IMG/VR virus record: IMGVR_UViG_3300009180_003294
Coordinates: 2,323 to 66,322 of that record
From: a virus
Reading direction: 5' to 3' (one strand)
Length of the DNA: 64,000 nt
Part shown: in pieces, positions 24,917-60,226 of the stretch
Layout: each line of letters begins with the position of its first letter
How positions within the stretch are numbered: position 1 is the stretch's first letter
Program-made: the position numbers and the translations under genes
The notes under the pieces: model-generated
Databases searched by the model: none
Seen by the model: the letters and a program-made list of their open reading frames with translations, nothing else
What the model was told of the DNA's origin: nothing

Positions 24917-24924
24917 TATAAATA
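24917..24924 (+). promoter_or_regulatory. T4-type late promoter motif TATAAATA heading the enzyme island
   Basis: Exact TATAAATA in the 54-nt intergenic gap, with a GGAG RBS before ATG 24953. Confidence 0.65.
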
Positions 24925-24952
24925 CATTATACTAGTATATAATGGAGTCAAA

Positions 24953-25306
24953 ATGGATGACAAACTCAGAGAAGCGTTAGAGTTCAGTAACTATCGCTTA
25001 ACTTTAAACAATCAAAAACTAAACCTTAAACAGCGAATGAATACCATGTTAACCATTGGTTATTCAAATTCAATGTTTACAGCCACACTGGAACTAATCA
25101 ATTTTGTTCAGCACTTGTTAGATAGAAAAGTCGAACAATTTGTTTTTATAGATGACAATGAAAACCCAATACTAATAACAGCATTACAAGACTTTCATGT
25201 CAAGTTGTTCAGTGCATATACAGAAGCACTGAATGAGTATTACAACGACTACGAAAAACTAAAAAAGAAAAGGGACACTAAAGGATTGGTAGGTTTAGAT
25301 GTCTAA
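24953..25306 (+). CDS. Hypothetical protein (first gene of island)
   Basis: 117-aa ORF with RBS, overlapping the next gene. Confidence 0.7.
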   Translation: MDDKLREALEFSNYRLTLNNQKLNLKQRMNTMLTIGYSNSMFTATLELINFVQHLLDRKVEQFVFIDDNENPILITALQDFHVKLFSAYTEALNEYYNDYEKLKKKRDTKGLVGLDV

Positions 25307-26195
25307 ATTTGATAAAGGTGTTTTGCTGATTGCGTATAACAACGGCAAAATAGCCTACGAAAAATTAGCAATAATAGCGGCAGCAAATGTAAAACTGCAC
25401 ATGAAAAACAATCATGTCACTTTGCTCACAGATTTAAACACTCTCAATGCTTTAACTGCGGAACTCACTCCCGAGCAATTATCTCTTACATTTGATCATA
25501 TCATTGTGGAAGATATTCAGCACGAACGTAATACAAGAATGCACAGGGACAGTCCTTGGACAGAATTCAGCACACAGTTCAATAATAAAAATAAACACAG
25601 CATTTTTCAAAAAAGCCCTTACCGACAAACATTGATGATAGACGTTGACTACATTGTAGGCAATGACAGTTTAGATGCAGTGTTTGACACCGACTATGAA
25701 CTTGCAATGTACAAAGACGCTGTCAGTGTTCGTAATTACAAGCCCAGAATCTGGGAACAAAAATTGCATCCGGACGGTATAGACATGTGGTGGAGCACCG
25801 TTGTGTATTGGAGAAAAGACAGTGAAATCGCTCGCTTGTTCTTTGGCGTGTGGGAACATGTCAAAGAGAACTATCATTATTACAAGTGGTTATACAAGTT
25901 TCCCGGAGTGTTATTCAGAACAGACTATGCTGCCAGTATTGCCGCACATATCTTAAATGGACAAACAGTGGGAAATACAGTGGCAGTGCTGCCAGGAAAA
26001 GTAATGCGTTTCAGTGAGCAAATTGATGATATTGTAGAGTTTAAATCTCTCAATGACTACGTGTTATTATGTCCAGATCCCAAAGAGCTATGGAAAAATA
26101 TTTGCAGTAGAATAATAAATGAAAACATACACTTGATGAATAAAATGGCAATTTTAAGACACTACACTAAACTCAAGGAGTTGATTTATGAGTGA
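25299..26195 (+). CDS. Putative GT-A fold glycosyltransferase
   Basis: 'GVLLIAYNN...' start and 'SPYRQTLMIDVDY' DxD motif. Confidence 0.65.
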   Translation: MSKFDKGVLLIAYNNGKIAYEKLAIIAAANVKLHMKNNHVTLLTDLNTLNALTAELTPEQLSLTFDHIIVEDIQHERNTRMHRDSPWTEFSTQFNNKNKHSIFQKSPYRQTLMIDVDYIVGNDSLDAVFDTDYELAMYKDAVSVRNYKPRIWEQKLHPDGIDMWWSTVVYWRKDSEIARLFFGVWEHVKENYHYYKWLYKFPGVLFRTDYAASIAAHILNGQTVGNTVAVLPGKVMRFSEQIDDIVEFKSLNDYVLLCPDPKELWKNICSRIINENIHLMNKMAILRHYTKLKELIYE

Positions 26196-27003
26196 AGGTT
26201 ATTTAATAGTTAATGGAACTGTTGAAAACTCTACGGAAGTAAATCTATTAATAACCAGCATTAAAAAAATAGATCTCAATAGACCTGTCAGCGTCATTGT
26301 TAATAGCACAAATGCAAAATTTATAGAAGCAGACAATGTCATTTTTTTAGCGGAAAAAAATCCAACATTATGTTATTTCAAATCAATGTTAATGAGTCCG
26401 TATACCAAGACCATTGGATTACTGCCCGATCAATTGCTGACTTATTTTGATCTGGGAATATGGGAAAATCTGCGAAGTTTAGATCCCATTGTTCTTCCAA
26501 AGCATCGCTATTTGTTTAATAATGAAATCGTAGATCCTTTGATGTATAGTACTGCTGGCATCGAATTTAAAAATTTTGGAGTCAGCAGTATTCCAAATGC
26601 AATATTTTTTAACAAAGACAAGGGCTGTGATTACATATTTGGACTGGCCAGCGTTTTATGTTCTAGTTATGATCAAGATAATTATATAAAGTTTTTTGCA
26701 GATAAAGAACATGAAATGCCACCGTTTCCCAAATATATATGGCCTAGTTGGGTGCTATCCCTATTGCAGTCTATAACTGAGAAAAAAATATCAACTTTTG
26801 ATTTTATGCATTGTATAGATTTGTCTAAACAAGAAAATAATTACATTAATAACAATTGGACCAAGCGTTGGAGCGAATTTTTAACATACTGGGTCAATGA
26901 TGAATGTACTCTTAAAATTGAAAATTTTGTACAACATGGTTTGGTTAAATATGAATCCAAGGGCTGGCTCACTGATGAGATATTAGAAAATTTTAAAAAA
27001 TAA
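26188..27003 (+). CDS. Divergent glycosyltransferase-like paralog (DxD degenerate)
   Basis: 'EGYLIV...SPYTKTIGLLPDQL' aligns by eye with the preceding gene, but the first Asp of DxD is lost. Confidence 0.5.
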   Translation: MSEGYLIVNGTVENSTEVNLLITSIKKIDLNRPVSVIVNSTNAKFIEADNVIFLAEKNPTLCYFKSMLMSPYTKTIGLLPDQLLTYFDLGIWENLRSLDPIVLPKHRYLFNNEIVDPLMYSTAGIEFKNFGVSSIPNAIFFNKDKGCDYIFGLASVLCSSYDQDNYIKFFADKEHEMPPFPKYIWPSWVLSLLQSITEKKISTFDFMHCIDLSKQENNYINNNWTKRWSEFLTYWVNDECTLKIENFVQHGLVKYESKGWLTDEILENFKK

Positions 27004-27996
27004 ATGAGTGACTTCGTAAGTGACAAGGATGATCAAGTTGAAGAATTTGACATACAAAAAAGAGTTCTTAAAAGTAGAAATACAGATAAAGAACAACGAG
27101 TGTATGTTGAATATAATAGACTTACAGGTTTACCTGTTGTTGCTTCACCCATGGAAATTTTTCCATCAGAGAAAAGAAATTCTATAGCTGTCATAACTGC
27201 TTCTACACTGACAAAAAAATTATTCGAAAACAAATTATCACTGTCCAAGCTCATAGTTAAAAAAAATCAAACAACCAATGAATTTGAATTAACGCACAAC
27301 AAGCAACGCAGAAAAGGAGAATTTGATTTTATTTTCGCTACAAATGCAGAACGGTCTTTTATACACTTACACTGTGATGTAGTAACTAAAAAAATACAGC
27401 TAATTTTTGATTATAATATTTTTAAATTAAATATGTTATTGGAAAAAATCTCAGAAAAACACTTGGAAGAATTGCCTGATTACATAGAAATATATTGCAT
27501 TGATAAAAATGAAAGATCCAAGCTGTTTGGAAAATTTACAGTGTCTTCCAGGGAATTATTTGAAAAACATGACATCAGTTTTAAGTGTAGTTGGTTACCC
27601 GATGACGTGTCTGGATTAAAGAACATTGGATTTTTATATTACAACGACAACCAAATTATATCATACGACTATAAATCAAATGAAAACTTGGTTGCAGAAA
27701 ATAATTTAGATTATCTTCCAAATTTGCTTTACAAACAGGAAGGTAATATGTTAAAATTACAAAGTACAATACAAGACATCAACACGTTTAGATTAAATGA
27801 AGACATAGAATTATATATTTGTGAAAAACATGACCCGACAATGATGTTGGGTTCTATCAAGTTAAGTAGTAACCAACTTAACAACTATAATAATTTTGAG
27901 ATAAAATTAACAAGTGAAAAAGAAGTTAAATTAGTATGTAACTATTTTCATTTACATGCAAAGGAAGAAGATGCTAGCACCGATTACCAGTTTTGA
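27004..27996 (+). CDS. Hypothetical protein
   Basis: 330-aa ORF in the operon with no recognisable motif. Confidence 0.65.
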   Translation: MSDFVSDKDDQVEEFDIQKRVLKSRNTDKEQRVYVEYNRLTGLPVVASPMEIFPSEKRNSIAVITASTLTKKLFENKLSLSKLIVKKNQTTNEFELTHNKQRRKGEFDFIFATNAERSFIHLHCDVVTKKIQLIFDYNIFKLNMLLEKISEKHLEELPDYIEIYCIDKNERSKLFGKFTVSSRELFEKHDISFKCSWLPDDVSGLKNIGFLYYNDNQIISYDYKSNENLVAENNLDYLPNLLYKQEGNMLKLQSTIQDINTFRLNEDIELYICEKHDPTMMLGSIKLSSNQLNNYNNFEIKLTSEKEVKLVCNYFHLHAKEEDASTDYQF

Positions 27997-28941
27997 TATT
28001 ATATTTTTAAGCTACGACGAACCCAACGCTGATAAGAACTATTCTGATCTATGTAACAAAGCTCCTTGGGCCAAGCGTGTACATGGAGTAAAAGGCTTTG
28101 ATGCGGCACACAAAGCCGCTGCCGCTGCCGCTGAAACAGATAGATTCATTACAGTAGATGCAGATAACATTGTACGTGATGACTTTTTAAGCATTGAATT
28201 AGACATGTCGAAAATTAGTCGCCATGACGTTATATCATGGGCAGGCAAGAATGTTGTCAACGGACTAGTATATGGCAATGGTGGTATTAAACTTTGGCCC
28301 AAACATGTGGTAGAACAAATGCGTACACACGAAGCCGCAGAAGATCCCAAAGCACAAGTTGACTTTTGCTGGGACATTTACTATCATCAAATGAATAACA
28401 TCTACAGTGACGTTTTTAATAATGCCAGTGCTTACCAAGCATATCGTGCAGGCTTTCGAGAAGGTGTTAAACTAGCATTAGAAGGTGGCGTAACAGTGGA
28501 TCCTCGACAACTAAAACAGCGAGTACACGATAGAAACTATAAACGTTTATTAGTATGGCCAGTGTCGGCGCTGATGTGTACAATGGGCTATGGGCCATGT
28601 ATGGAACTAGATTGGGTTGCTACATGTCTAATATCGCCAGAAATGACTTTGATTTTACGTTGGTGCGTGATTTTGAATGGCATGATGATTTTTGGAAAAA
28701 TGCTGTTCAGCCCCGGTTTGCTGGAGAGTCAGAAAAATGTTTGACCAGCGGTTGGACATACGATAAGAAAAAACTACAAGACGAAATATTCAAACTGGGA
28801 GAATCATTGAGAACAAACCTAGGATTAGAGATTGCAGAACTTGACTATAACGGAAGTAAAATGTTCAAGGAAAGCTGGATTAACCCACCAAGACTTGGTG
28901 CACAGGTCAAAGAAAATCAAGTAGATAACTCAATAAATTAA
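27971..28941 (+). pseudogene. Frameshifted glycosyltransferase-like gene (DAD family, paralog of 41661..42665)
   Basis: ORF 27971-28744 matches the paralog up to 'KRLLVW'. Similarity continues in ORF 28555-28941 ('ASVGADVYNGLWAMYGTRLG' vs 'MSVGRDVENGDWVIYGARLG'). One base appears missing at about 28558. Confidence 0.75.
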
Positions 28942-28942
28942 T

Positions 28943-30343
28943 ATGGAACACAATAAAGATATCATTGCATTTCAAAAAAAGATTAACGATGTTAGTCCTA
29001 GTTTTTGTATTGCCAAATGGAAGCAGGTAACTCTGCATCTACAAACAGGTCACAACCACAGTTGTCACCATCCCACTACGCACAAAATTCCCTTGGACGA
29101 ACTGGCCGCAGATCCCAGTGCATTGCATAATACACAGTTTAAAAAAGAACAGCGTAAAAAAATGTTGGAGGGCGACCGTCCTAAAGAATGTGACTATTGT
29201 TGGAAAGTAGAAGACAGCGCACCAGATGCACTCAGCGATAGAATCTATAAGAGCTATGACGTATGGGCAAAGCCTCACTTTGACGAAGTTCGTAACTTAC
29301 CATGGGACAGCAACGTTGTTCCCAGTTATCTCGAAGTTAGTTTCAGTAACGTCTGTAATTTTAAATGTAGCTATTGTAGTCCGCAGGTCAGTAGTTTGTG
29401 GATGGAAGAAGTTAAACAGCACGGCCCATATCCAACACATGGTAAATTTAATGACATTGCTGGACTTAAACAAATTGACCAAATGCCTATTCCGCATAAT
29501 CAATATAATCCCTATGTTGAAGCATTTTGGAAATGGTGGCCCACTGTTTATAAAGAACTTCAGCACTTTAGGATAACCGGTGGAGAACCTTTATTGTGTA
29601 AAGACACATTTAAAGTTCTCGACTACGTAATCGAGAATCCTAATCCAGATATCCATTTAAGTATCAATAGCAATTTGTGTGTACCACCGCAGTTATTTGA
29701 CAGATTCCTTGAAAAAGTTAAAATTATCTGTGAAGAAAAGAAAGTTAAAAAGTTTAAAATCTTTACAAGCTGTGATGCTCATGGCAAGGCCGCAGAATAT
29801 ATTCGCGACGGCATGAATTATGAACTTTGGTTAAGTAATATCCGTAGGGTATTAAAAGAAATCCCCCAGTGTACTATTACTATCATGAGTACCTATAATG
29901 TTCTCAGTGTACCTACATACACATTGTTCTTACAAGATGTGTTAGACATTAAAAACGAATTCGGCGGGCACGATGCAGTTCATGCTCCGTTGATTTTAGA
30001 TGCACCTTTCCTAAGACATCCTGCACATCAAAGTATCTTTCATGTAATGCCTTCGGCATGGGCCAAGGAATACATTTTCAATCAAGTAACAATGATGTAT
30101 CGTAATTTAGAAAACGGTGAATGGTACGGAAGTGCTAATCAGGGATTTTTCAAATGGGAAGCTGAAAAATTTAAACGTATATACGAATTAACAATGAATC
30201 AAACAGATCTAGAAGAAGTCACAGTATATCAAAAAGATTTAGTTGCGTTTGTAGACGAACATGATCGACGCAGAGGAACAAACTTTTTGGCTACATTTCC
30301 TGAGTTTGAACCTTACTATACTAAATGGAAAAATGCCAAATGA
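28943..30343 (+). CDS. Radical SAM protein, subfamily A (N-terminal Cys-rich twitch-like region)
   Basis: CNFKCSYC (CxxxCxxC), 'ITGGEP', and N-terminal 'FCIAKW..HSCHH..ECDYCW'. Confidence 0.9.
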   Translation: MEHNKDIIAFQKKINDVSPSFCIAKWKQVTLHLQTGHNHSCHHPTTHKIPLDELAADPSALHNTQFKKEQRKKMLEGDRPKECDYCWKVEDSAPDALSDRIYKSYDVWAKPHFDEVRNLPWDSNVVPSYLEVSFSNVCNFKCSYCSPQVSSLWMEEVKQHGPYPTHGKFNDIAGLKQIDQMPIPHNQYNPYVEAFWKWWPTVYKELQHFRITGGEPLLCKDTFKVLDYVIENPNPDIHLSINSNLCVPPQLFDRFLEKVKIICEEKKVKKFKIFTSCDAHGKAAEYIRDGMNYELWLSNIRRVLKEIPQCTITIMSTYNVLSVPTYTLFLQDVLDIKNEFGGHDAVHAPLILDAPFLRHPAHQSIFHVMPSAWAKEYIFNQVTMMYRNLENGEWYGSANQGFFKWEAEKFKRIYELTMNQTDLEEVTVYQKDLVAFVDEHDRRRGTNFLATFPEFEPYYTKWKNAK

Positions 30344-31188
30344 AAGTGGCTATTTGCATCAGTGGACAACCTCGAACATGGGAAAAGTGTTATCATACGT
30401 GGTTTAAACTAATTGATAAAATTAAACAATCATATGAAGTCGATGACATAGATATATTTTGTCATTTATGGGATTATAATTCTCCGCCCCATCGTTTGCT
30501 GATGCATGAAGGCTGGGATTATAATACTGTGCCCGGGGACAAAATATCCGATGATGAAAAGAAAAGATTCGTAGACGCAATAAAACCCAAAGCGTGTATA
30601 TTTGAAGATGAAATTTCTAACAAAAATAAAATCAAAGACCTGCGCGAACAAAATGCTGTGCATCTCAATGAGCACGGAGAAACTAAATTAGATTGGGCCG
30701 CAGGACAATTCTATAGTGTAATGCGAGCGGCACATTTAAAGAAAATCCATGAGTTTGAAAATGATTTTCATTATGATCTATGCATTAAGATAAGATGTGA
30801 CATGTTTTTTGATGACTATCAAATTGATCATTTTGTAAAGTATGATCTAGTATATCCAGAAGTCAACACTTTTTACACTTGTCATACTACCAAGGATGAT
30901 GTACAGTTTCCTTTTCACAGATTGGGTGATGTATTTTGGTTCGCTGACACTGTTACATTTAATCGTATCTGTGAATTTTATAGATGGTTGCCTGTAATAG
31001 GAAAGAGAAGCTTCAACAGTAATAATCTAGTGGGCACAGAACATGCATTGTATTTTTATGCAAAGATGTTAAACATGGAAATATCTCCATTGTCAGTGGA
31101 TCCTAAAATATATAGGGCGCAGGATTATTTAGATAGAAAAATAAAATCAGGTTTGGAAGGAGAATTAGGCGGTCATGAGCTTATTTAA
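30340..31188 (+). CDS. Putative glycosyltransferase-like protein ('SGQxR' family)
   Basis: 'KVAICISGQPR...DIFCHLW...YDLCIKIRCD'. Start at ATG 30340 (ATGA overlap). Confidence 0.55.
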   Translation: MKVAICISGQPRTWEKCYHTWFKLIDKIKQSYEVDDIDIFCHLWDYNSPPHRLLMHEGWDYNTVPGDKISDDEKKRFVDAIKPKACIFEDEISNKNKIKDLREQNAVHLNEHGETKLDWAAGQFYSVMRAAHLKKIHEFENDFHYDLCIKIRCDMFFDDYQIDHFVKYDLVYPEVNTFYTCHTTKDDVQFPFHRLGDVFWFADTVTFNRICEFYRWLPVIGKRSFNSNNLVGTEHALYFYAKMLNMEISPLSVDPKIYRAQDYLDRKIKSGLEGELGGHELI

Positions 31189-32020
31189 TATAGAAGAACA
31201 ACCTAAAAGAAAATTCAGAATTGCAGTTTGCTTCAGTGGCCAGGCACGTTATTGGCAAGAAAGTGCTGCCAATATCAAACGTTTTTTCGAACACGAATAT
31301 CCTCATCCAGAAAACGGTTTAGATGTAGAAACTGACTATTTTATTCACACATGGGATACAAACTCATGGCGCTTACCTAAAACAGATCACAGCGTGTATG
31401 AGGATGTAAAACACAACGACAGAGATGCCATCATAGAAACATATAAGCCCAAGGGTTTTATACAACAAGAATTTCATAAAGATGATTTTAAAAGAGCATG
31501 GGATCCTATGTTTTATAGTTTTGCAAGAAGTTTAATGCTTAAAAGAGACTATGAATTGCAACAAAGTTTTCAATATGATTTAGTTATTAAAGCAAGATTA
31601 GATGTAGTTTATAACCCCAGTCATCGATTCCCTTTACAACGAGTTTGGCCAGGCGTTTGTTACACAGCCACACCTATAAGCAAATTTGCCTCAGAATTTA
31701 ATTCTAATAATTTTGATGATGTATTGTTTTATGGCGATAGTCCTACCATGGATTTAATAGGAGATTTATATTTGTCTCATTTAATTGCTCGACCCATGGA
31801 ATATCAATATAAAAATCAACAAGGGCTGAACCTGGATAAAGTATTATGGCTTGGCCCTGGTTGTTTATTATATAATTATATGATGAACCTGTCTATACAT
31901 CCAACCTGTGTAAATCCATTTGAGTATGCAGTGATGCGAAGTACAGCAGTTGAAGCAAAACTGAATTCAATTTATAACTATGAAGAAATTAGGAGAAAAT
32001 GGTTTGAGTGGTACATCTAA
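31175..32020 (+). CDS. Putative glycosyltransferase-like protein ('SGQxR' family)
   Basis: 'RIAVCFSGQAR...DYFIHTW...YDLVIKARLD'. Paralog of the previous gene. Confidence 0.55.
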   Translation: MSLFNIEEQPKRKFRIAVCFSGQARYWQESAANIKRFFEHEYPHPENGLDVETDYFIHTWDTNSWRLPKTDHSVYEDVKHNDRDAIIETYKPKGFIQQEFHKDDFKRAWDPMFYSFARSLMLKRDYELQQSFQYDLVIKARLDVVYNPSHRFPLQRVWPGVCYTATPISKFASEFNSNNFDDVLFYGDSPTMDLIGDLYLSHLIARPMEYQYKNQQGLNLDKVLWLGPGCLLYNYMMNLSIHPTCVNPFEYAVMRSTAVEAKLNSIYNYEEIRRKWFEWYI

Positions 32021-32024
32021 ACGA

Positions 32025-34516: not shown

Positions 34517-34956
34517 TGGAAATTAAAAAAGTAACTAAACACTGGGGCTACGAGCTTTGGATTGCAGACGGTTCAGCGACTCCTTATGCCAGTAAACGTA
34601 TTTTATTCAAAGCGGGCAATAGAACCAGCTTACAAGTACACGAATATAAGATAGAAACTAACTATGTTCTAAGTGGCACAGGCATGTTACATCGCAGTCG
34701 AGAACCACTGGACATTGCCAAATTTTTAGAACAAGGTATGACTAGTCGACAAGTAGAAGCCTACGAATATACATTTGAGCGTATAGAACTTAAAGCCGGC
34801 GTTGTATTCAATGTACAACCAGGCTATGTACACAGAGTAATCGCTGACACTGATTTAGAATTCATGGAAACCAGCACCACTGAATTAGACGATGTAATTC
34901 GATTACAAGACGATGCTGGAAGAACACATGGCAGAATTAGCTACGAACATGAGTAA
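34513..34956 (+). CDS. Cupin protein (mannose-6-phosphate isomerase type II C-terminal-like)
   Basis: 'KHWGYELW...SLQVHEYKIETNYVLSG...PGYVHRV...ETST..LDDVIRLQDD'. Confidence 0.75.
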   Translation: MMEIKKVTKHWGYELWIADGSATPYASKRILFKAGNRTSLQVHEYKIETNYVLSGTGMLHRSREPLDIAKFLEQGMTSRQVEAYEYTFERIELKAGVVFNVQPGYVHRVIADTDLEFMETSTTELDDVIRLQDDAGRTHGRISYEHE

Positions 34957-50171: not shown

Positions 50172-50180
50172 AGGATTAAT

Positions 50181-52596: not shown

Positions 52597-53738
52597 CAAT
52601 TTCTAAATCATTCTGCATTATGCCCTGGACAGGGATATCCACCGAAGCCAGCGGAGGTTATCGCCCCTGTTGTTGGATGGATGGCACACATCTGTATAGA
52701 GGTTCTATCGACGATTACGAAACCAGTAAATATTTGTCTGATATGAAAGAAGATTTTTTAGAAGGCCGATATCCCAGTACTTGCAATCGCTGTAAATGGA
52801 ATGATGAAAATGACATGGTGTCTAAACGTCAACGCGAAAATAAAAAATGGTTGGAAAAAAATAACATAGAAGATTATGCAGTCACTAATTATTCTATTAT
52901 CGATCTAAGGCTTAATAACAAATGCAATTTACTGTGTGTAAGTTGCGGACCAAAAAGTTCTAGTTCTATATTTGAAGAAGTAGAACAGAATCAAGACAAG
53001 CACTTAACGCATTATAAATTTATATACAACAAAGTTAAAAATATGAATTTGTCTACTCCATACTCTGACGAAGAAGTAGATAAACTTATAGAACGTATCA
53101 ATCCCACTAGCAGAGTATATTTCACAGGCGGTGAGCCTACACTAGTTAAGCCTGCATTTAGAGTGCTGGAAAAGATGCTGGAAAAAGGTTATAACAAAGA
53201 TGTACCCATTGAGTTTAACAGTAACTTTCAAGCACTGAATAAAAAGTGGATAGAGCAATTAAAACAGTTTAAAGGCTTGATGATGCCTAGTATTGATGCT
53301 GTTGGTTCACAAGCAGAATTAATTAGATATGGATCGAAGTGGGAAGACGTAGACTACAATTTTAGATATTTTTTTAAAGAGTGTACGGGCTTTAGAATTA
53401 AAATTTGGCCCACTATATCGACATTAAACATATTGTATATCAAAGATATTATTAATTGGGCAGAAAGCTTTGAATCTGACAGAATAGAAATATCATTGGA
53501 TAATCGTTTGTCGGCACCTGCCTGGCTTGATATAAAAAATATGCCGGATAGTTTAAAAGATAAAGCCCGAACATATTTAAGCGACGATCCGAGATTCTCG
53601 GATATATTAAGACACTTAAATGAAGTTTCAAATGTCGCCGAACAAAAAAACTTTATAATTAATATGGATAAATTAGATGCCATACGAAATACAAATTGGA
53701 GAGAAACATTAAATGAAATTGCTAATGGCTGGGAATGA
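52593..53738 (+). CDS. Radical SAM protein, subfamily A
   Basis: 'FCIMPW..RPCC..CNRC', CNLLCVSC and 'FTGGEP'. Confidence 0.9.
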   Translation: MTISKSFCIMPWTGISTEASGGYRPCCWMDGTHLYRGSIDDYETSKYLSDMKEDFLEGRYPSTCNRCKWNDENDMVSKRQRENKKWLEKNNIEDYAVTNYSIIDLRLNNKCNLLCVSCGPKSSSSIFEEVEQNQDKHLTHYKFIYNKVKNMNLSTPYSDEEVDKLIERINPTSRVYFTGGEPTLVKPAFRVLEKMLEKGYNKDVPIEFNSNFQALNKKWIEQLKQFKGLMMPSIDAVGSQAELIRYGSKWEDVDYNFRYFFKECTGFRIKIWPTISTLNILYIKDIINWAESFESDRIEISLDNRLSAPAWLDIKNMPDSLKDKARTYLSDDPRFSDILRHLNEVSNVAEQKNFIINMDKLDAIRNTNWRETLNEIANGWE

Positions 53739-54282
53739 AGAATATGGACTGGCAAAGTCCTTGAAAATGCTGTATCCTGACACAGTGAGCCTAAGTAGAA
53801 CCACAGGCTATGACATTAAAAAGTTAGAAACAAAAAAGCAAATTGCTGAAATGAGTTTAGACTATGATGTTTTCTTTTGCGTAAGTGCATTGGGAGACTT
53901 CCATCAATCTTTGTTAGTTGAAAAGATCATGGAAAAATGGCAGGAAAAGAACCACACAGGATACTTAATTGTATTAGGCTCTAGTGCAGATACTCCGGTC
54001 AATGGAACGTTAAGAATGTATAACGTGGAGAAAAGAGCGTTAAGAGCATATTGCAGGCAGCTCAGTCAAATAGCTGCCAGCGAAAAACCCAGTAATTGGA
54101 AAGTAACATACGTTGCTCCTGGCAATTTGCATACGCCAAATCAGGATGCAAAGATGCCTTCTACTCTTAAATTGGACTGCGATTACGTTGCCGGAGTTAT
54201 AAGTTGGTTATTAGAACAGCCCTTTGATATTAATATCAGCGAACTGTGCTTGGACAGAAAACAACTTATCTGTGAAAAGTGA
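53713..54282 (+). CDS. Short-chain dehydrogenase/reductase-like protein
   Basis: N-terminal 'MAGNEEYGLA', 'LGSSA', YxxxK 'YNVEK' and 'VAPG'. Confidence 0.7.
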   Translation: MKLLMAGNEEYGLAKSLKMLYPDTVSLSRTTGYDIKKLETKKQIAEMSLDYDVFFCVSALGDFHQSLLVEKIMEKWQEKNHTGYLIVLGSSADTPVNGTLRMYNVEKRALRAYCRQLSQIAASEKPSNWKVTYVAPGNLHTPNQDAKMPSTLKLDCDYVAGVISWLLEQPFDINISELCLDRKQLICEK

Positions 54283-54994
54283 CATTGATAGGTTGTTTTA
54301 TTTTAGTCGGATACACAAAGTCTCCCAATGACTGACTTGCATTCCTTATTTTAGTGTCATCTGGATATCCTACTCCTACCATTAACAATGGAAGACGTTT
54401 TAATCCTAGAACTTTTTTAATATCTTCCTGCTTCATACAACTGCAAAAGCCAGTTGAATAACCGGCCTGTACTGCAACTAGTGCAAGATAAGCAGAGCCG
54501 ATTCCAATTGCAACATCTCTATCAAAGTGTACTACTTGTTGGTTAACACCAGTGGGATCATTGCCGTGTTCAATAGAATAAAATTGTTGATAATTCTCAG
54601 CGTATTTTAATTTGTCAACATCTCTCCATAACGTCAAATCGGTGTTGTCTTCAAATATAAACAAAGCATTAGCAAGAACTTGATCATTTGGTATGAATTC
54701 TACAGGATCTTCGGGTCCTAACTTTACTGTGGGAATTAGTACATTATTTTCGTCACGCCTGGCTGCAAATCCAGCGGTGTGACTATGTATTTGTGCTATT
54801 AAATCTTGATTTGTCACAACATGTACATTATAAAATGCAATGTTCTGTTTGCTTGGGCAATGACTTGCCGCGGACACTAACAATCCTATATCTTTGTCAG
54901 GTATCTTTTTTGACAAATCCCAGTTTCTCTGACAATGTTGGCTTTTGTTAATTGCATTAATTAGCTCTATGCGTTTTTCTGAAGAGAGTTCCAT
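54266..54994 (-). CDS. Nitroreductase-family flavoprotein
   Basis: 'QRNWD...HCPSKQN...AIGIGSAYLALVAVQAGYSTGFCSC...VGVGYP'. Confidence 0.8.
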   Translation of the reverse strand: MELSSEKRIELINAINKSQHCQRNWDLSKKIPDKDIGLLVSAASHCPSKQNIAFYNVHVVTNQDLIAQIHSHTAGFAARRDENNVLIPTVKLGPEDPVEFIPNDQVLANALFIFEDNTDLTLWRDVDKLKYAENYQQFYSIEHGNDPTGVNQQVVHFDRDVAIGIGSAYLALVAVQAGYSTGFCSCMKQEDIKKVLGLKRLPLLMVGVGYPDDTKIRNASQSLGDFVYPTKIKQPINVTFHR

Positions 54995-55007
54995 AATAGC
55001 AATTTCC

Positions 55008-56114
55008 TTAGTTTGTTATATATTTATATATATTCCTGAAATCTTGTCCTCTGGAATTATCTAAGAAACTTGTTATACGCATGAACTTTGCTGTCAAATG
55101 ACTATCGTCTCTAGATAGCATTAGCTTTGAAATATATTCGCATTGACTTCGAACATTTTCGTCAGAATAATTAAAGTTTTTAAACTTATCAGCAATAAGC
55201 TCTTTTGATTCTTTTGGCAGCACAGTTATACATAAAAAATCCGGAAAGCTAAGGTGAGTTGTATTGAATTTAATTTTTTTAGCTGTAAGCCATTCCAAAG
55301 TCTCGGGCAAGTGAAGTACATTAAAAATACTGATAGTCGGTCGTGCTTGCAATCGAAGATCAAACTCATCTTGTAATGTAATGAATTTTTCTATGTTAGT
55401 TATAACAGCATCATAGTCGCTGGGGTAACGAAGATATTCGAATTCCTCCTTGACAATGCTGTCCATGCTGACCACTAATTCAACATGTTTAAATTGTTTC
55501 AATCTATCTACAATTTCCGCTTTTGGATATACTGTGCAGTTGGTACTGTAATTAAGGAAAATATTTTTACTGTGTCCAGAGTCTATAATATAATCTAATA
55601 GGCGCCAATGATCAGGAGTTACAAATGGTTCGCCTCCAGTGATTTTTAAATGTTTTAAATTTGGAACAAACGGGAAAATGTCTCGTATGTCTATTTTTGT
55701 TGTTTTTGTGGCAAAGCCCTTTAATGCAAGTTCTTCTTCGTACCACTTATCGCTGTACTTACTATCGCACATGCGACATTTCAAATTGCATTCGTTGCTG
55801 ATTGCAAGCTCGAGCCATTCTATCTTTGGATTGTCGGTGTCTACTTGACCCAGTAACTGATTTTCGTTGTAACGTTGTCTCAAACTCTTCTTACCGTTGT
55901 CTTCTTCTTCGTTGCAACGAACACATCCTGCAATTCTTTCTCCGGCGAAACTTGCTCTGCGTAATTCGTTCATTTCCTCGCTGAAGAAATTTCCTTCGAT
56001 TGTATTTTGAAAATACGGAACGTTATTTGATTCAAATCGGCAGCAGGGTTTAATCCTGCCAGTGCCATCAACAAATTGATGATTCCAAAAGGCAGAGCAT
56101 ATATTATTGTTCAT
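55008..56114 (-). CDS. Radical SAM protein, subfamily A (inverted)
   Basis: 'ICSAFW..KPCC..CVRC', CNLKCRMC and 'ITGGEP'. Start ATG 56114 lies 5 nt after TATAAATA. Confidence 0.9.
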   Translation of the reverse strand: MNNNICSAFWNHQFVDGTGRIKPCCRFESNNVPYFQNTIEGNFFSEEMNELRRASFAGERIAGCVRCNEEEDNGKKSLRQRYNENQLLGQVDTDNPKIEWLELAISNECNLKCRMCDSKYSDKWYEEELALKGFATKTTKIDIRDIFPFVPNLKHLKITGGEPFVTPDHWRLLDYIIDSGHSKNIFLNYSTNCTVYPKAEIVDRLKQFKHVELVVSMDSIVKEEFEYLRYPSDYDAVITNIEKFITLQDEFDLRLQARPTISIFNVLHLPETLEWLTAKKIKFNTTHLSFPDFLCITVLPKESKELIADKFKNFNYSDENVRSQCEYISKLMLSRDDSHLTAKFMRITSFLDNSRGQDFRNIYKYITN

Positions 56115-56151
56115 ATTAGTATTTATAGATAGCAAATAATAAATATCATAT
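56115..56151. promoter_or_regulatory. Divergent late-type promoter pair
   Basis: Minus strand TATAAATA (56127-56120) and plus strand TAAATA (56140-56145) in a 37-nt gap between divergent radical-SAM genes. Confidence 0.6.
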
Positions 56152-57285
56152 ATGAAACCAGTTGCAAGTTATTTTAAATTTAATCCAACGGGTGCTTTTT
56201 CGGTAGATTGGTATATAGGAAAACGTTGTAACTTTGCTTGTAGTTATTGCGTTGATTACTTACACGATTATACAAGCCCGCATGTTCCTTTAGAGAACAT
56301 GAAAAAATTAGTTGATGTACTATACGAAAAACACAAGTCGAATATATTATGGAGCCTAACAGGCGGAGAACCCACTATCAATCCTGGATTTATGGATCTG
56401 TGCAAATACATAAAAGAAAAAGGCAGCAGGTATGTCAGTTTGACTACTAACGGTACACGTACATTAGACTATCACAAAGAATTATTTAGATATATTGATG
56501 GTGTAACATTAAGTTTTCACTTTGAATTTATGGAACAGCGCATTGAAGAATATATTCACAAGTGTATAGAACTAGACAAGTGGCGACTTGAACTTAATAA
56601 AAATCTAGTTCAGGGTCAGCCTAAAAAAACTCTAATACTTAGATTTATGGTAGAGACCGGTCAGTTACCCAACGTTGAACGCATGGAAAAGGCTTTCAGA
56701 GACGCAGGCATTACTAATATAGAACATCGTTATATTCGTCCTCCTAGTGCAAATGCAAAGAACATGCAAACTGAGGAGAAGTATGCGTTTACAGATGAAA
56801 ACGATCCTAATCAGATTGTTAATCCTGAACAAGTACAACGCATAGAAACTAAAGAAGCAACTTTTTATAAAAAAGAAGAATTAGAATCCCTTAGCACAAT
56901 ATATAAAAGTACCGCAGATCCTGACAAACGCAAACTTAAATTTTGGTTTCAAGATGAACAAGGCAAGTACGCTGACACAGATTATCATTACAATGAGTTA
57001 AACTTTGACAAAAAGAATAATTATCAAGGATGGCTATGTTGGGCAGGCGCCAAGCATTTAAAAATCATTCCTGATGGCGGAATTTATATTGGTAGTTGTC
57101 ACGTGGGCGGACGTCGAGGCAACATATATGATAAAGACAGCATAGACTTGCCAGACGATCCTATTCGTTGCAATAAATGGCGCTGTACCGATAACACAGA
57201 TTTAAAAGTACCCAAGATCAAAGACTGGGAACATTATCATTTAGTCAAGGATATGATAGAATGGGAAAAGAACAATGACAAATAA
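56152..57285 (+). CDS. Radical SAM protein, subfamily C (C-terminal SPASM/twitch-like)
   Basis: 'DWYIGKRCNFACSYC', 'LTGGEP', and C-terminal 'WLCWAG..GSC..RCNKWRC..D..VPK'. Confidence 0.9.
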   Translation: MKPVASYFKFNPTGAFSVDWYIGKRCNFACSYCVDYLHDYTSPHVPLENMKKLVDVLYEKHKSNILWSLTGGEPTINPGFMDLCKYIKEKGSRYVSLTTNGTRTLDYHKELFRYIDGVTLSFHFEFMEQRIEEYIHKCIELDKWRLELNKNLVQGQPKKTLILRFMVETGQLPNVERMEKAFRDAGITNIEHRYIRPPSANAKNMQTEEKYAFTDENDPNQIVNPEQVQRIETKEATFYKKEELESLSTIYKSTADPDKRKLKFWFQDEQGKYADTDYHYNELNFDKKNNYQGWLCWAGAKHLKIIPDGGIYIGSCHVGGRRGNIYDKDSIDLPDDPIRCNKWRCTDNTDLKVPKIKDWEHYHLVKDMIEWEKNNDK

Positions 57286-58516
57286 CAATCCGTATTCGGT
57301 AATATCAAACAGTCATCCAGAGACTATGCACATAGAATGGGTGGTTAATAATGTTTGTAATTACAAATGTAGTTACTGTATGCCAGATCTACATTCTGGA
57401 TCCAGCGGACAGCCTCATTTCGAAAATAGTTTAAAGTTTTTGGACTTTGTACATGAAAAGGTTAACCCCAATTATAAGATGCTGACACTCAGTGGCGGTG
57501 AGCCCACTATGTGGCCTAGACTAAGTGAGTTTTTGCAAAAAATGAATCCTAACTACTACACGACTATTGTAACTAATGGAAGTAGAACATTAAGATGGTG
57601 GGAAGAATTTGTAGTTGATGCAACAAATTTGTCAGTTGTTACTATCAGTATACATTTAGAATATGCCGACATGGAACATATTATAAACGTTTGTAAAATA
57701 CTTCACAAAAAGATAAGAACAACAGTGTTGATATTATTTAATCCTGCCAAGAGAGAACAAGCAAAAATGTTTGCAGAAAGATTCAAGGCCGAACAATTAA
57801 ATATAACTTACACGATTAAACCAATAACCACACGCTATGAAGAAGACACTGATAATGCTTCTTTAGAGTATACCGCAGAAGATAAAAAATTTATCAAAGA
57901 CAATACAGTATATTCACAAAAAGGATTTCCATCGTTGCCAACTTCTGCAGAGATGGTAGTCGACGGTGTTAAAAAAGATTCGTTTTTCGCTGGTAGAATG
58001 ATCGCAGATAAAACTAATAAATTTACAGGTTGGTGGTGCGAAGCTGGAAGAAAACGATTGACTATATGGCATGATGGCAATGTTTATGGAGCACAGTGCC
58101 ATACTGCCAAGAAAAATGTGTTGGGGAACATCAATGACGGCGAAATCAAAATTATCAACGGATTAGTATGTGATATTATGCACTGCGCTTGCTTGCCTGA
58201 TCTACGAATTCCGAAAAGAAAACATTATGATTTGAAAAAAGAACTGCAAGGAGATTCTGCGGCAATTGTTGCATTAGATGCAGCCGGTAGCTTAACTACT
58301 ATGCCTTTGCGTCAATTACAATTAGAAGCAGCCAGGGTGATAAGTAGCATGGAAGCTACTAACGATAATATACATAAATTTAATGTAGAAAGCAGACACA
58401 ACAGCCAACTATGGTATAGGTCTGCTCTTATATGGTATATTAACAAATATGGAAATTTACCAAGTATTACCGGTCCAGGAAAAGAAATAAAATTTATCTA
58501 CGAACAAAATGAGTGA
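57275..58516 (+). CDS. Radical SAM protein, subfamily C, with extra C-terminal domain
   Basis: 'EWVVNNVCNYKCSYC', 'LSGGEP', 'WWCEAG..AQC..CDIMHCAC.PD..IPK', plus an extension of about 95 aa. Confidence 0.9.
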   Translation: MTNNNPYSVISNSHPETMHIEWVVNNVCNYKCSYCMPDLHSGSSGQPHFENSLKFLDFVHEKVNPNYKMLTLSGGEPTMWPRLSEFLQKMNPNYYTTIVTNGSRTLRWWEEFVVDATNLSVVTISIHLEYADMEHIINVCKILHKKIRTTVLILFNPAKREQAKMFAERFKAEQLNITYTIKPITTRYEEDTDNASLEYTAEDKKFIKDNTVYSQKGFPSLPTSAEMVVDGVKKDSFFAGRMIADKTNKFTGWWCEAGRKRLTIWHDGNVYGAQCHTAKKNVLGNINDGEIKIINGLVCDIMHCACLPDLRIPKRKHYDLKKELQGDSAAIVALDAAGSLTTMPLRQLQLEAARVISSMEATNDNIHKFNVESRHNSQLWYRSALIWYINKYGNLPSITGPGKEIKFIYEQNE

Positions 58517-59675
58517 TTTAAAAACAAGCGAATATGACTTTACTAAGATTCCTTACAGTGACTTAGTTAGAGTTGGACAAAGAACAATGCTGTACCGTGA
58601 CTTGTTCACAGTAAGCTGGCTACTGGGACGTTACTGTAACTATCGATGCAGTTATTGCTGGCCTTATGCCCGCAGTGATACCAAGGATCACCGCCCCACA
58701 CCGTTGATGCTACATACAGTAGACGAGATCAAACGACAGGCTAGACAAAATGGATTTAATAGTTTCCACTTTAGTCTAAGTGGCGGCGAACCTACATTCC
58801 ATCCTGCTTACATTGACATACTTAATCATTTAAACGATGACGCAGGGAATACAAACTATACCAGCGTACACATGACCAGTAATATGAGTCGACCGATTAA
58901 ATGGTTCGAAGAAAAGTATGTGCCAGCAGTTCGTGATTTCCATCGTGCTAGTATTACTGCTAGCTGCCATTTGGAACATGTGGACACTGATAAAAAGATA
59001 GAAGAGTTTGCTGACAAGCTAGTGTTATGCCAAGAATATGATACACAAATCACAGTCAATCAAGTCATGGTACCCGAACAGTTCTATAAAATTTATGACC
59101 TGGCACTTTACTTTCATGAACGTGGTATTAATGTTACATTAAAACCGCAGAGTGATCCCACTGCTAGTCGTGTAGTGGATGGTTATACTGATGACATGTT
59201 GGAAAAACTACACAATGGAATGCCGCAACGTGCATTTACAGAAAAGAAATCTCTTAAAGCTGGTTTAGTTAAACGTCCTAAACCGACATATTTGATACAT
59301 GTTGCTGATCCAGGTTTTAAACAACAATCAGAAGTAGATGCACATTACCAAATTGAATTCATCGACAAAGACGGCAAGGCATGGTTCATGGATCAAGCGG
59401 AACGTTTCAATGCATTTAACTTTAATAATTTTAAAGATTGGGAGTGTAGTAGTGGTTATCGCAGTATTATTATTCGCGAACCAGATGGCACAATTAAAAG
59501 AAGTTATAGCTGTGCCGAAGTTCCATTGGGTCAAATTGAAACGGGATTTAAATTATACGACAAGCCTATGCCCTGCGGAAGTAAAAGTTGTGTGAGTAGT
59601 GCCGACAGTAAGATACCTAAAAGATTCCCCGGTACCAAACTTCCATTATTTCCCGGAGATACAACATTCTTATGA
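58509..59675 (+). CDS. Radical SAM protein, subfamily C
   Basis: 'SWLLGRYCNYRCSYC', 'LSGGEP' and 'WECSSG..YSC..PCGSKSCVSSADSKIPK'. Confidence 0.9.
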   Translation: MSDLKTSEYDFTKIPYSDLVRVGQRTMLYRDLFTVSWLLGRYCNYRCSYCWPYARSDTKDHRPTPLMLHTVDEIKRQARQNGFNSFHFSLSGGEPTFHPAYIDILNHLNDDAGNTNYTSVHMTSNMSRPIKWFEEKYVPAVRDFHRASITASCHLEHVDTDKKIEEFADKLVLCQEYDTQITVNQVMVPEQFYKIYDLALYFHERGINVTLKPQSDPTASRVVDGYTDDMLEKLHNGMPQRAFTEKKSLKAGLVKRPKPTYLIHVADPGFKQQSEVDAHYQIEFIDKDGKAWFMDQAERFNAFNFNNFKDWECSSGYRSIIIREPDGTIKRSYSCAEVPLGQIETGFKLYDKPMPCGSKSCVSSADSKIPKRFPGTKLPLFPGDTTFL

Positions 59676-60226
59676 AAATATTAATATCAGGTAATCCTGC
59701 TTTTGGCCTAGCAGAAGCATTAAATTTAGAATTAGTAGATTACGAACTTACGTTTGTAAGCAGAACAACACATGATTTGGATTTAACTAAAATAGAAAAT
59801 CAACAAAAATTTGCAGATATGAGTGTTGATTATGATGTAGTAATTATTAACAGTGCATTATGGAAGTTTAATCAAGTTTTGTTACTTGAAGCGGTGTATA
59901 AGAAACTCAAGACAGCCGGTAAACAAACTTTGATTATCTGTATAGGCAGCACCACGGACAGAGTAATGAAAGCTACTGATTGGTTATATAATGCTGAAAA
60001 GAAAGCATTACGTGATTATACCAATAGCTTGGGTATGACTGGTGTATGGGCAAAGAATCCCAGAGTTACATTGATTAGTCTTGGTACTTTATCTAATAAT
60101 CAAACTAAACATCCAGACAGAAAAACAATGCCAATAAGAAAAGCTGCCGAATATGTTAAATGGATACTCGAACAGCCCGCTGAGTTTCACATAAATGAAA
60201 TCAGCATAGATCCTTTACAGGCCTAA
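59672..60226 (+). CDS. Short-chain dehydrogenase/reductase-like protein
   Basis: 'ISGNPAFGLA', 'IINSA', 'IGST' and YxxxK 'YNAEK'. Paralog of 53713..54282. Confidence 0.7.
   Translation: MKILISGNPAFGLAEALNLELVDYELTFVSRTTHDLDLTKIENQQKFADMSVDYDVVIINSALWKFNQVLLLEAVYKKLKTAGKQTLIICIGSTTDRVMKATDWLYNAEKKALRDYTNSLGMTGVWAKNPRVTLISLGTLSNNQTKHPDRKTMPIRKAAEYVKWILEQPAEFHINEISIDPLQA

What the first reader, a model, noticed from the sequence alone, without database searches (positions are those of the whole stretch)
24917..60226. ~35-kb phage island with 11 radical-SAM enzymes plus glycosylation/tailoring genes fused to the tail module: candidate virion-decoration system
Seen: immediately after the fibre genes, about 35 nearly all co-oriented, tightly coupled genes encode 11 CxxxCxxC radical-SAM proteins and about 9 GT-like proteins. 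They also encode 3 SGNH proteins, a carbamoyltransferase, an MTase-like protein, 2 QueC-like enzymes, 2 SDRs, a nitroreductase, a 2OG-like oxygenase and a nucleotide-sugar cassette. The island opens with TATAAATA and has internal TAAATA motifs like those before gp25 and the fibre genes. Known: such enzyme sets build and tailor glycans or modify peptides in bacterial biosynthetic clusters, whereas most characterised phages carry very few radical-SAM genes. Inference: this is a late-expressed pathway that installs complex glycans or radical-mediated modifications on virion proteins, for receptor binding, stability or defence evasion.
Basis: partly seen in the sequence, partly recalled or inferred. 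Interest (0 to 1): 0.92.

Follow-up and report, generated by a model that had tools for sequence, protein, structure and literature searches.

The report
Giant-phage radical-SAM sugar-tailoring island
A fragment of an uncultured freshwater giant phage carries, right behind its tail-fibre genes, a 35-kb block of soluble sugar-transferring, sugar-activating and eleven iron-sulfur "radical SAM" enzymes that probably builds and edits an unusual sugar decoration, but what gets decorated is untested.

Summary
The island is real. 39 ORFs lie in 24953-60226, 37 of them on the + strand. All 11 radical-SAM genes are confirmed. Six belong to NF033640 (N_Twi_rSAM), a family for which I found no assayed member.

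Structure models show a GT8-type glycosyltransferase (25299) and a four-member GT-A family with a DxD motif ("famA"). The carbamoyltransferase, nitroreductase and sugar-activation genes are supported. The 2OG oxygenase, the methyltransferase and several "GT-like" or SGNH labels are not confirmed.

- No island protein has a membrane segment.
- T4-late-type ATAAATA motifs precede both structural and island genes, while neighbouring non-structural genes have sigma70-type promoters.
- The fibre-adjacent start is conserved in 3 of 3 uncultured relatives, and the cultured Ralstonia phage RsoM2USA has a mini-version at the same place.

Against a virion-specific role, the same core (famA, 43340, three radical-SAM types) sits in Bdellovibrionota chromosomes. 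One relative also keeps the core 80 kb from its baseplate.

Best reading: a late, cytoplasmic pathway that builds and tailors a glycoconjugate, with virion proteins the leading but unproven acceptor. This scan has already found this island type on other DNA.

The parts
10116..24898 (+). Upstream context: gp25-like wedge (10116), gp6-like wedge (10507), 2751-aa giant protein (13965), three fibre-type genes (22262, 22909, 23849).
   Evidence: PHROG hits. The gp6-like protein matches jumbo myoviruses Atu_ph07, PA5oct, SCTP-2, CBB and GAP32. RsoM2USA ORF361, which shows only two short local matches (about 25-27% identity over about 150 aa each) to the giant protein, and ORF356 and ORF359 are MS-confirmed virion proteins (PMC8504454).
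23849..24898 (+). Last fibre-type gene, with a length-variable (Tyr-Gly)n tract.
   Evidence: Translation. The tract is conserved in G007, G001 and G002. No match in 50,697 phage records.
24917..24924 (+). TATAAATA late-promoter-like motif, 36 nt before 24953.
   Evidence: ATAAATA sits at the same distance in the G007, G001 and G002 orthologous spacers, but not in RsoM2USA.
24953..25306 (+). 117-aa conserved protein of unknown function.
   Evidence: No family hit. Orthologs in G007, G001, G002 and RsoM2USA ORF354.
25299..26195 (+). GT8-fold glycosyltransferase.
   Evidence: AF2 pLDDT 89.4. Foldseek top hits are glycogenin, the UGGT catalytic domain, LgtC and GlyE, from E 3.5e-7, with 319 hits at E<=1e-3. 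D115 and D117 are invariant. RsoM2USA ORF353 is 32% identical.
26188..27996 (+). Two unassigned proteins (26188, 27004).
   Evidence: No family hit. 26188 weakly matches RsoM2USA ORF352.
27956..28941 (+). famA paralog (GT-A family) split by a frameshift near 28558.
   Evidence: The gene lies in one frame, without the shift, in G002 (a single 333-aa ORF) and in G007, where its two parts abut.
28943..30343 (+). N_Twi radical SAM (NF033640, 337.6 bits).
   Evidence: RsoM2USA ORF349 is 40% identical.
30325..32020 (+). DUF7796-like pair (30325, 31175).
   Evidence: The Atlas gives name leads only.
31980..34516 (+). DUF6071/SGNH-like 31980, unassigned 32929, SGNH-like-by-motif 33641.
34507..39452 (+). 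Sugar cassette: cupin, NTP-transferase+APH kinase, 36477 (SGNH-like by motif), SnoaL-like, AroE-like, GatZ/KbaZ-like.
   Evidence: The cassette is absent from the G002 island.
39449..40921 (+). NodU/CmcH-type carbamoyltransferase.
   Evidence: 45% identical to RsoM2USA ORF199.
40946..43347 (+). Three famA paralogs (GT-A fold, DxD).
   Evidence: By paralog, 72 (40946), 52 (41640) and 60 (42625) of the 93 loci scanned (80 centred on 45411) hold a copy.
43340..44194 (+). Conserved core protein; methyltransferase-like as a lead only.
   Evidence: Homologs in RsoM2USA ORF347 and Bdellovibrionia L183/L180.
44191..45366 (+). Type-B radical SAM (paralog of 50864).
   Evidence: Found in 74 of the 93 loci scanned, 80 of which are centred on 45411.
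45411..49509 (+). Three N_Twi radical SAMs (433, 277 and 374 bits).
   Evidence: 188 IMG/VR stretches encode a 45411 relative; the 80 kept are at least 69% identical.
49506..50864 (+). Pair of PP-loop ATPases with a QueC-like C-terminal Cys motif.
50864..53738 (+). Type-B radical SAM 50864, unassigned 52030, N_Twi radical SAM 52587.
53713..54282 (+). Short SDR-like protein (paralog of 59672).
54266..56135 (-). Nitroreductase (54266) and N_Twi radical SAM (55008), each behind a TATAAATA on the - strand.
56152..60226 (+). Type-C radical SAM triplet (56152, 57275, 58509) and a short SDR-like protein.

Best explanation
The island is a variable-length accessory block, about 35 kb here and about 20 kb in G002. 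It sits between fixed flanks (fibre genes on the left, the thyX operon on the right) in an uncultured freshwater jumbo myovirus.

Inferred pathway:
1. Island genes are transcribed with the structural genes from T4-late-type promoters (inferred from motifs).
2. A kinase/nucleotidyltransferase cassette activates a sugar or polyol (inferred from family hits).
3. Soluble GT8-type and GT-A-type transferases attach it to a cytoplasmic acceptor (folds shown, activity inferred).
4. The product is then edited by carbamoylation, by esterase/acyl-type SGNH enzymes, by PP-loop adenylation-type chemistry, by redox enzymes, and by 11 radical-SAM enzymes of three architectures whose reactions are unknown (inferred).

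Because every protein is soluble and the block follows the fibre genes, the leading candidate acceptor is a virion surface protein. This last step is the weakest and is not shown.
For: - Radical-SAM count and subtypes.
- GT8 fold of 25299.
- GT-A fold with invariant DxD in famA. The top Foldseek hit is the PBCV-1 capsid-glycosylating GT, at a weak E of 5e-4.
- Carbamoyltransferase and sugar-activation hits.
- 0 of 39 island proteins have a TM-like segment.
- Promoter contrast: 4 of the 5 + strand ATAAATA sites lie 12-35 nt before the starts of 10116, 22909, 24953 and 56152. Six strict TTGACA-N17-TATAAT sites lie beside the non-structural genes (five within 120 nt of a start: ligase, 8850, HNH 9506, 62372, plus the thyX-operon site) and a seventh, weaker match lies inside radical-SAM gene 28943.
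- The ATAAATA before 24953 is conserved in 3 of 3 uncultured relatives.
- The fibre-adjacent module is in place in G007, G001, G002 and RsoM2USA.
- The core is conserved in the 93 loci scanned, 80 of them centred on 45411: 52-72 hold each famA paralog, 74 hold 44191 and 80 hold 45411.
- Relatives carry 8-19 PF04055 hits each.
- No PqqD/RRE hit in any island ORF.
Against: - No chemistry is known for NF033640, and I found no solved relative.
- The core also lives in Bdellovibrionota chromosomes amid housekeeping genes, so its ancestral acceptor is cellular.
- In G005 the 45411 core is about 80 kb from the baseplate gene.
- RsoM2USA has the GT8 gene but no (YG)n tract in the 37 kb examined.
- Many family assignments are below curated cut-offs.
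- Late timing rests on motifs only; whether the clade encodes a gp55-type factor was not tested.
Confidence: 0.5

Rival explanations
1. Host-envelope remodelling. The enzymes make or edit nucleotide-sugars, or glycans that the host's own membrane machinery exports. This would alter LPS or capsule during the long infection, for example to block superinfection. The same reading has been proposed for jumbo cyanophage clusters.
For: Iyer et al. 2021 (PMC7824862, section 3.4.10, read in full) interpret the P-SSM2 and S-SSM6a clusters of sugar kinases, nucleotidyltransferases, cupins, GTs and carbamoyltransferases in this way. Cellular counterparts exist in Bdellovibrionota.
Against: The island has no flippase, polymerase, priming transferase or any TM-like protein (0 of 39). 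Its promoter motifs are the late type shared with structural genes.
Confidence: 0.15
2. A free small molecule. The island would be a biosynthetic gene cluster for a sugar- or cyclitol-derived metabolite (antibiotic, signal or cofactor) made in the infected cell.
For: AroE-like, GatZ-like, SnoaL-like, cupin, carbamoyltransferase, nitroreductase, PP-loop and SDR enzymes are typical of natural-product clusters. Iyer et al. offer this option for the cyanophage carbamoyltransferase cluster. Bacterial arrays stand without structural genes.
Against: There is no exporter or resistance gene in the island. The four to five transferase paralogs and the fixed position behind the fibre genes fit a macromolecular acceptor better.
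Confidence: 0.12
3. Radical modification of a protein or peptide without a glycan as the main point. An example would be radical-SAM chemistry on the (Tyr-Gly)n tract of the last fibre-type protein.
For: The YG tract is conserved directly upstream of the island in 3 of 3 uncultured relatives despite only 55% protein identity. SPASM/twitch enzymes include peptide maturases, which give weak NCBIfam hits.
Against: No RRE/PqqD domain was found in any ORF. There is no YG tract in 464 kb of Bdellovibrionota loci that carry the same radical SAMs, nor in the RsoM2USA region.
Confidence: 0.1
4. Hypermodification of phage DNA (deazapurine-type or glycosylated/carbamoylated bases) to evade restriction.
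For: The island has two QueC-like PP-loop enzymes, QueE/viperin-like weak hits for the type-C radical SAMs, and a carbamoyltransferase. thyX lies next door. QueD-family genes occur in 2 of 4 relatives.
Against: - QueC equivalog score is 23.1 against a cut-off of 150.3.
- TGT/DpdA was found in 0 of 4 phage relatives that are 65-72% complete.
- A ThyA/hydroxymethylase-family gene was found in 1 of 4.
- The QueD genes lie far from the island.
Confidence: 0.08

Closest known systems
RsoM2USA ORF347-354 (cultured Ralstonia solanacearum jumbo phage, MG752970)
   Same: Same order directly after the gp6-like, giant-protein and fibre genes: 24953-like, GT8-like (32%), 26188-like, famA (56% to 27956), N_Twi radical SAM (40% to 28943), famA, 43340-like. 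Neighbouring ORF356, 359 and 361 are MS-confirmed virion proteins (passages of PMC8504454).
   Different: It has one radical SAM here, plus one beside a carbamoyltransferase and the DNA ligase elsewhere. It has no sugar cassette, no PP-loop/SDR array and no YG tract. All these genes are annotated as hypothetical, and the paper's main text has 0 occurrences of 'radical'.
Jumbo cyanophage 'LPS' and carbamoyltransferase clusters (P-SSM2, S-SSM6a/S-SSM7)
   Same: Large phage-borne clusters of sugar kinase, nucleotidyltransferase, cupin, several GT paralogs and NodU-like carbamoyltransferases, variable between relatives (PMC7824862 section 3.4.10). Their carbamoyltransferases are 27-29% identical to 39449.
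   Different: No N_Twi radical-SAM relative was found in those phages. tblastn with 45411 hit only RsoM2USA and two Vibrio phages among 50,697 records. That paper does not mention radical SAM (0 occurrences).
NCBIfam NF033640 (N_Twi_rSAM) arrays in Bdellovibrionota
   Same: Six island proteins are full-length members at 277-433 bits against a cut-off of 170. Bacterial arrays hold the same partner families: 58509 at 58-69% identity, 45411 at 61-68%, 44191 at 42-54% among its clearest copies, plus an SDR, a PP-loop enzyme and sometimes famA and a 43340-like gene.
   Different: The bacterial arrays sit among housekeeping genes and are not next to virion genes. No member with an assayed function was found.
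Chlorovirus PBCV-1 capsid glycosylation enzyme (PDB 2p6w/2p72)
   Same: A virus-encoded, soluble GT-A enzyme acting in the cytoplasm on a virion protein. It is the top Foldseek hit of the famA model and scores VIA Z 8.6.
   Different: The match is weak (E 5e-4, 13-15% identity). Other GT-A enzymes and nucleotidyltransferases score as well or better (Z 10.9 to 8). No radical SAM is involved there; that point is recalled, not checked here.
GT8 retaining transferases (glycogenin, UGGT catalytic domain, LgtC, GlyE)
   Same: The 25299 model matches them at E 3.5e-7 to 1e-6, and a DxD is invariant.
   Different: No Pfam hit even at E<=5. Identity is 13-17%. Donor and acceptor are unknown.

Membership tests
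Radical SAM superfamily (PF04055) | CxxxCxxC cluster motif and a Pfam score over the cut-off | tested here: met
   The motif is present in 11 of 11. 10 of 11 are over 29.5 bits; 50864 scores 23.7-25.2.
NF033640 N_Twi_rSAM | Full-length match over the 170-bit cut-off, with the Cys-rich twitch-like module N-terminal to the core | tested here: met
   Six proteins at 277-433 bits cover model positions 1-2 to 393-398. C9, C28, C90 and C93 are invariant before the CxxxCxxC motif. The other five score 28-49 bits and are not members.
GT-A glycosyltransferases (famA: 27956/28555, 40946, 41640, 42625) | GT-A Rossmann-like fold with a DxD motif | tested here: met
   Model pLDDT 82. VIA Z 10.9-8 over residues 21-198. 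D86 and D88 are invariant in 22 sequences. Nucleotidyltransferases of the same fold score Z about 9, so the fold alone does not prove transfer.
A curated GT family (Pfam) for famA or 25299 | Sequence-profile match | tested here: inconclusive
   No Pfam or PHROG hit. The famA profile finds no PDB sequence at E<=1.
GT8 (25299) | Fold match to glycogenin/LgtC and a DxD motif | tested here: met
NodU/CmcH carbamoyltransferases (39449) | Both Carbam_trans_N and Carbam_trans_C domains | tested here: met
   114 and 183 bits. The NodU equivalog cut-off is not reached (140 against 1000), so it is not NodU itself.
RiPP radical-SAM maturase system | RRE/PqqD-like recognition domain and a precursor peptide gene | tested here: not met
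   No PqqD/RRE family among the Pfam hits of the 39 ORFs. All peptide-maturase NCBIfam scores are far below their cut-offs. No precursor was identified; small ORFs under 80 aa were not examined.
7-deazaguanine (QueC/QueE/DpdA) DNA modification | QueC equivalog score; a DpdA/TGT transglycosylase in the genome | tested here: not met
   QueC scores 23.1 against 150.3. TGT is found in 0 of 4 phage relatives, all incomplete at 65-72%. FolE was not searched.
Lipid-linked O-antigen/capsule pathway | Membrane priming transferase, flippase, polymerase or ABC exporter | tested here: not met
   0 of 39 island proteins have a 19-residue Kyte-Doolittle mean of 1.6 or more. This is a crude predictor and covers the island only.
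T4-type late transcription unit | TATAAATA-like -10 element before genes; a gp55-type late sigma factor in the genome | tested here: inconclusive
   The motif is present and conserved. gp55 was not searched. The T4 consensus is recalled, not taken from a call.
Virus-encoded virion glycosylation | Glycan demonstrably attached to a virion protein | not testable with these tools
   Only position, promoter class and solubility could be examined.

The most novel reading that the evidence does not exclude
The island would be a phage-encoded protein glycosylation-and-radical-editing system. The glycogenin-like GT8 enzyme encoded two genes after the fibre gene would prime tyrosines of the conserved, length-variable (Tyr-Gly)n tract of the distal fibre-type protein. 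The famA transferases would extend the glycan. The swappable battery of twitch-first radical-SAM enzymes would then rewrite it, giving each phage lineage a different fibre coat. Bdellovibrionota would use the same toolkit on a cell-surface protein.
Probability: 0.1. Interest if true: 0.9.

Novelty: new variant of a known kind. Interest (0 to 1): 0.72.

Why it matters
Phage-borne glycan clusters are known, but none has been described with a battery of radical-SAM enzymes. My searches found no paper on such arrays in phages or in Bdellovibrio.

The family involved (NF033640) has no assayed member that I could find, yet it is abundant:
- 188 IMG/VR stretches encode a 45411 relative, and the 80 kept are at least 69% identical.
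- Large relatives carry 8-19 radical-SAM genes each.
- 31 of 151 Bdellovibrionota genomes hold members, some with 11 or more copies.

Working out its chemistry would open a new branch of radical-SAM carbohydrate or protein chemistry. It would also show what giant phages spend about a tenth of their genome on.

Tried and rejected
- Near-identical DNA in phage records: none for either half of the island.
- PHROGs gave nothing useful for 10 unassigned ORFs. Pfam at E<=5 gave only chance-level hits.
- PDB sequence searches found nothing for the famA profile, 33641 or 45411, and only chance-level hits for 43340.
- TATAAATA as a statistically enriched word: rejected, 4 found against 9.2 expected. 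Only its positions are informative.
- A complex of the GT8 enzyme with the YG-tract protein (complex prediction) gave 'no answer' (score 0.00). It counts neither for nor against binding.
- RNA evidence: one lake metatranscriptome run held six short contigs at least 99% identical to 46808, 48136, 58509 and thyX. The tool warns that DNA can be present in such libraries, and contigs show no strand, start or level. I do not count this as proof of transcription or timing. Parts without RNA cover mean nothing.
- Cluster names for NCBI-sourced homologs gave nothing informative.
- A host assignment to Bdellovibrionota was considered. It was not adopted because shared genes alone do not show a host, and one 'bacterium' MAG contig of 349.5 kb (L105, GC 0.33) looks like a mis-binned phage.
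- Supplementary tables of PMC8504454 and PMC7824862 were not seen. They may annotate RsoM2USA ORF347-354 or list radical-SAM genes.

Full report
WHAT THE WINDOW IS
The window is 64,000 of the 66,322 bases of an IMG/VR virus record that CheckV rates 18% complete, which implies a genome of roughly 350 kb. Its gp6-like baseplate wedge protein matches jumbo myoviruses at 36-43% identity: Atu_ph07, PA5oct, SCTP-2, CBB and GAP32. PHROGs recognise a baseplate hub/lysozyme, gp25-like and gp6-like wedges and fibre-type proteins upstream of the island. Near-identical DNA stands in freshwater and lake metagenome runs from several studies (four runs laid).

CHECKING THE OBSERVATION
- Between 24953 and 60226 there are 39 ORFs, 37 on the + strand. 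Nearly all overlap or abut.
- Eleven proteins carry CNxxCxxC. All eleven match PF04055, ten of them over the cut-off.
- NCBIfam splits them into three architectures:
  - Six full-length members of NF033640, the 'twitch domain-containing radical SAM protein' family, at 277-433 bits against a cut-off of 170: 28943, 45411, 46808, 48136, 52587 and 55008(-).
  - A pair, 44191 and 50864, 39% identical to each other.
  - A triplet, 56152, 57275 and 58509.
- In the six N_Twi proteins, four cysteines are invariant ahead of the radical-SAM motif.
- The carbamoyltransferase is unambiguous and the nitroreductase passes its cut-off.
- The PP-loop pair, the two short SDR-like proteins and the sugar cassette are weaker.
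- No ORF hits a Pfam or PHROG glycosyltransferase family.
- 52030, the supposed 2OG oxygenase, has no support.
- 43340 has only an Atlas lead to methyltransferases.
- Two of the three 'SGNH' genes rest on motifs alone.

THE TRANSFERASES
I spent both structure models on the transferases.
- The four-member paralog family that I call famA has 6,399 homologs in the protein collection. None of the 120 listed carries a name or a Pfam domain.
- The model of 41640 (pLDDT 82) has an N-terminal GT-A domain. VIA Z scores run from 10.9 to 8 against many GT-A enzymes. The best Foldseek hit, though weak, is the PBCV-1 capsid-glycosylating enzyme. A DxD is invariant.
- 25299, the second gene after the fibre genes, models at pLDDT 89 as a GT8-type enzyme. 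Its top hits are glycogenin, the UGGT catalytic domain, LgtC and GlyE, with 319 hits at E<=1e-3. It also has an invariant DxD.
- Five transferase-fold genes are therefore supported, not nine.

FEATURES THAT BEAR ON MECHANISM
1. None of the 39 proteins has a membrane-like segment. The island cannot by itself run a lipid-linked, exported polysaccharide pathway.
2. Promoter classes differ:
  - Strict TTGACA-N17-TATAAT sites stand before the ligase, two small ORFs, both HNH genes and the thyX operon.
  - ATAAATA or TTAAATA lies 12-35 nt before the starts of the gp25-like gene, two fibre-type genes and the island genes 24953, 34507, 40946, 45411, 56152 and 54266(-).
  - Four of the five + strand ATAAATA words are in such positions.
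  - The exact octamer TATAAATA is not over-represented in the window.
  - The ATAAATA before 24953 is kept at the same distance in three relatives whose proteins have diverged to 50-90% identity.
  - That this motif marks late genes is an analogy with T4, which I recall rather than tested.
3. No RRE/PqqD domain was seen.

RELATIVES
- 188 IMG/VR stretches encode a 45411 relative, and the 80 kept are at least 69% identical.
- Across the 93 loci then held (80 of them centred on 45411), the conserved core is the famA paralogs (72 loci for 40946, 52 for 41640, 60 for 42625), 44191 (74) and 45411 (80); 43340 passed the filter in only 15. The other genes vary.
- Five large relatives, 60-72% complete, have 8-19 PF04055 hits each.
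- Five others, 15-66% complete, have 6-12 N_Twi matches over the family cut-off (9-16 at E <= 1e-5).
- The 45411 core lies downstream of the gp6-like gene on the same strand in 6 of 7 large records. In G005 it is about 80 kb away, although another radical-SAM cluster sits downstream of that baseplate gene.
- I read the island start directly in G007, G001 and G002. In all three the YG-tract fibre gene is followed by 24953, GT8, 26188, 27004 and famA.
- G002 lacks the sugar cassette. Its island ends, as here, at an SDR-like gene next to thyX.

THE CULTURED PHAGE RsoM2USA
This was the most useful result. RsoM2USA is the only one of 50,697 phage records with famA or the GT8 gene. It has a seven-gene mini-island directly after its gp6-like gene, giant protein and fibre genes, in the same order as here. 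The published virion mass spectrometry confirms ORF356, 359 and 361 beside it as structural proteins (passages of PMC8504454). That paper does not mention radical SAM.

THE CELLULAR COUNTERPART
- A genome scan with an N_Twi alignment found 142 relatives; the 80 best were kept. The 22 closest (26-44% identical over most of the query's length) are almost all Bdellovibrionales or Pseudobdellovibrionaceae MAGs.
- Their flanks hold the same partner families.
- One 936-kb contig carries famA, a 43340-like gene and 44191-, 45411- and 58509-type radical SAMs side by side.
- famA is present in 5 of 5 such genomes.
- In a 2.49-Mb chromosome the array lies between housekeeping genes, and famA stands alone beside sucCD and mdh.
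- 31 of 151 genomes sampled from that phylum have N_Twi members over the cut-off. None of 14 control genomes does.
- The toolkit therefore has a cellular target, which argues against machinery dedicated to virions.

THE DNA-MODIFICATION RIVAL
- No TGT/DpdA in 4 of 4 phage relatives.
- A ThyA-family gene in 1 of 4.
- QueD in 2 of 4, far from the island.
- All of these genomes are incomplete.

COMPARISON WITH WHAT IS KNOWN
The nearest published idea is the jumbo-cyanophage 'LPS' and carbamoyltransferase clusters. Iyer et al. read these as surface-polysaccharide diversification or secondary metabolism (PMC7824862, section 3.4.10 read in full). Those clusters have no radical-SAM battery. I found no paper describing such arrays in phages or in Bdellovibrio (search listings and abstracts only).

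Earlier agents of this scan reached the same reading on other genomes. I found the Bdellovibrionota link, before reading those notes.

VERDICT
The island is a real, conserved and unusual glycoconjugate-type tailoring island. Virion decoration is plausible but unproven.

Noticed in passing
window 27956-28941: One famA paralog is split into two overlapping ORFs by a frameshift near 28558. In G002 the ortholog is a single 333-aa ORF, and in G007 its two parts abut without the shift. This is either an assembly error or a recent pseudogene.
   Followed up: partly
window 24527-24667 (within 23849-24898): The (Tyr-Gly)n tract varies in length between relatives: about 47 aa here, longer in G007 and about 18 aa in G002. 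It lies between conserved flanks. No such tract occurs in 464 kb of Bdellovibrionota loci or in the RsoM2USA region.
   Followed up: yes
window 7297, 8849, 9200, 9437, 62331, 63617: Near-perfect TTGACA-N17-TATAAT promoters stand beside the ligase, small ORFs, both HNH endonuclease genes and the thyX operon. They form a clean early-type class, opposite to the ATAAATA class.
   Followed up: partly
L105 (genome contigs; 349.5-kb contig of a 'bacterium' MAG, GC 0.33): It carries famA, a 43340-like gene, 45411 (64%) and 58509 (58%). Its size and content match a complete jumbo phage genome mis-binned as a bacterium.
   Followed up: no
L181 (Bdellovibrionales chromosome, about 8764-10117 of the locus): A stand-alone famA gene lies next to an EVE-domain gene and the succinyl-CoA ligase and malate dehydrogenase genes.
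   Followed up: no
L103 8451-9968: The Bdellovibrionia array includes a B12-binding radical SAM, and a phage-type integrase lies about 5 kb away. The array may sit on a genomic island there.
   Followed up: no
L094 (Vibrio phage K566, about 161.5-166 kb of the record): Three annotated radical-SAM genes cluster in a 255-kb Vibrio phage. One is a distant relative of 45411 (21% identity).
   Followed up: no
L001 (RsoM2USA 123.4-130.4 kb): A second small cluster lies next to the DNA ligase gene: carbamoyltransferase (45%), a DUF6071-like gene and an N_Twi radical SAM (34%). It is separate from the fibre-adjacent mini-island.
   Followed up: partly
window 9506-10045 and 62372-63568: Two HNH endonuclease genes. 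One is wedged between the early-type genes and the gp25-like baseplate gene.
   Followed up: no
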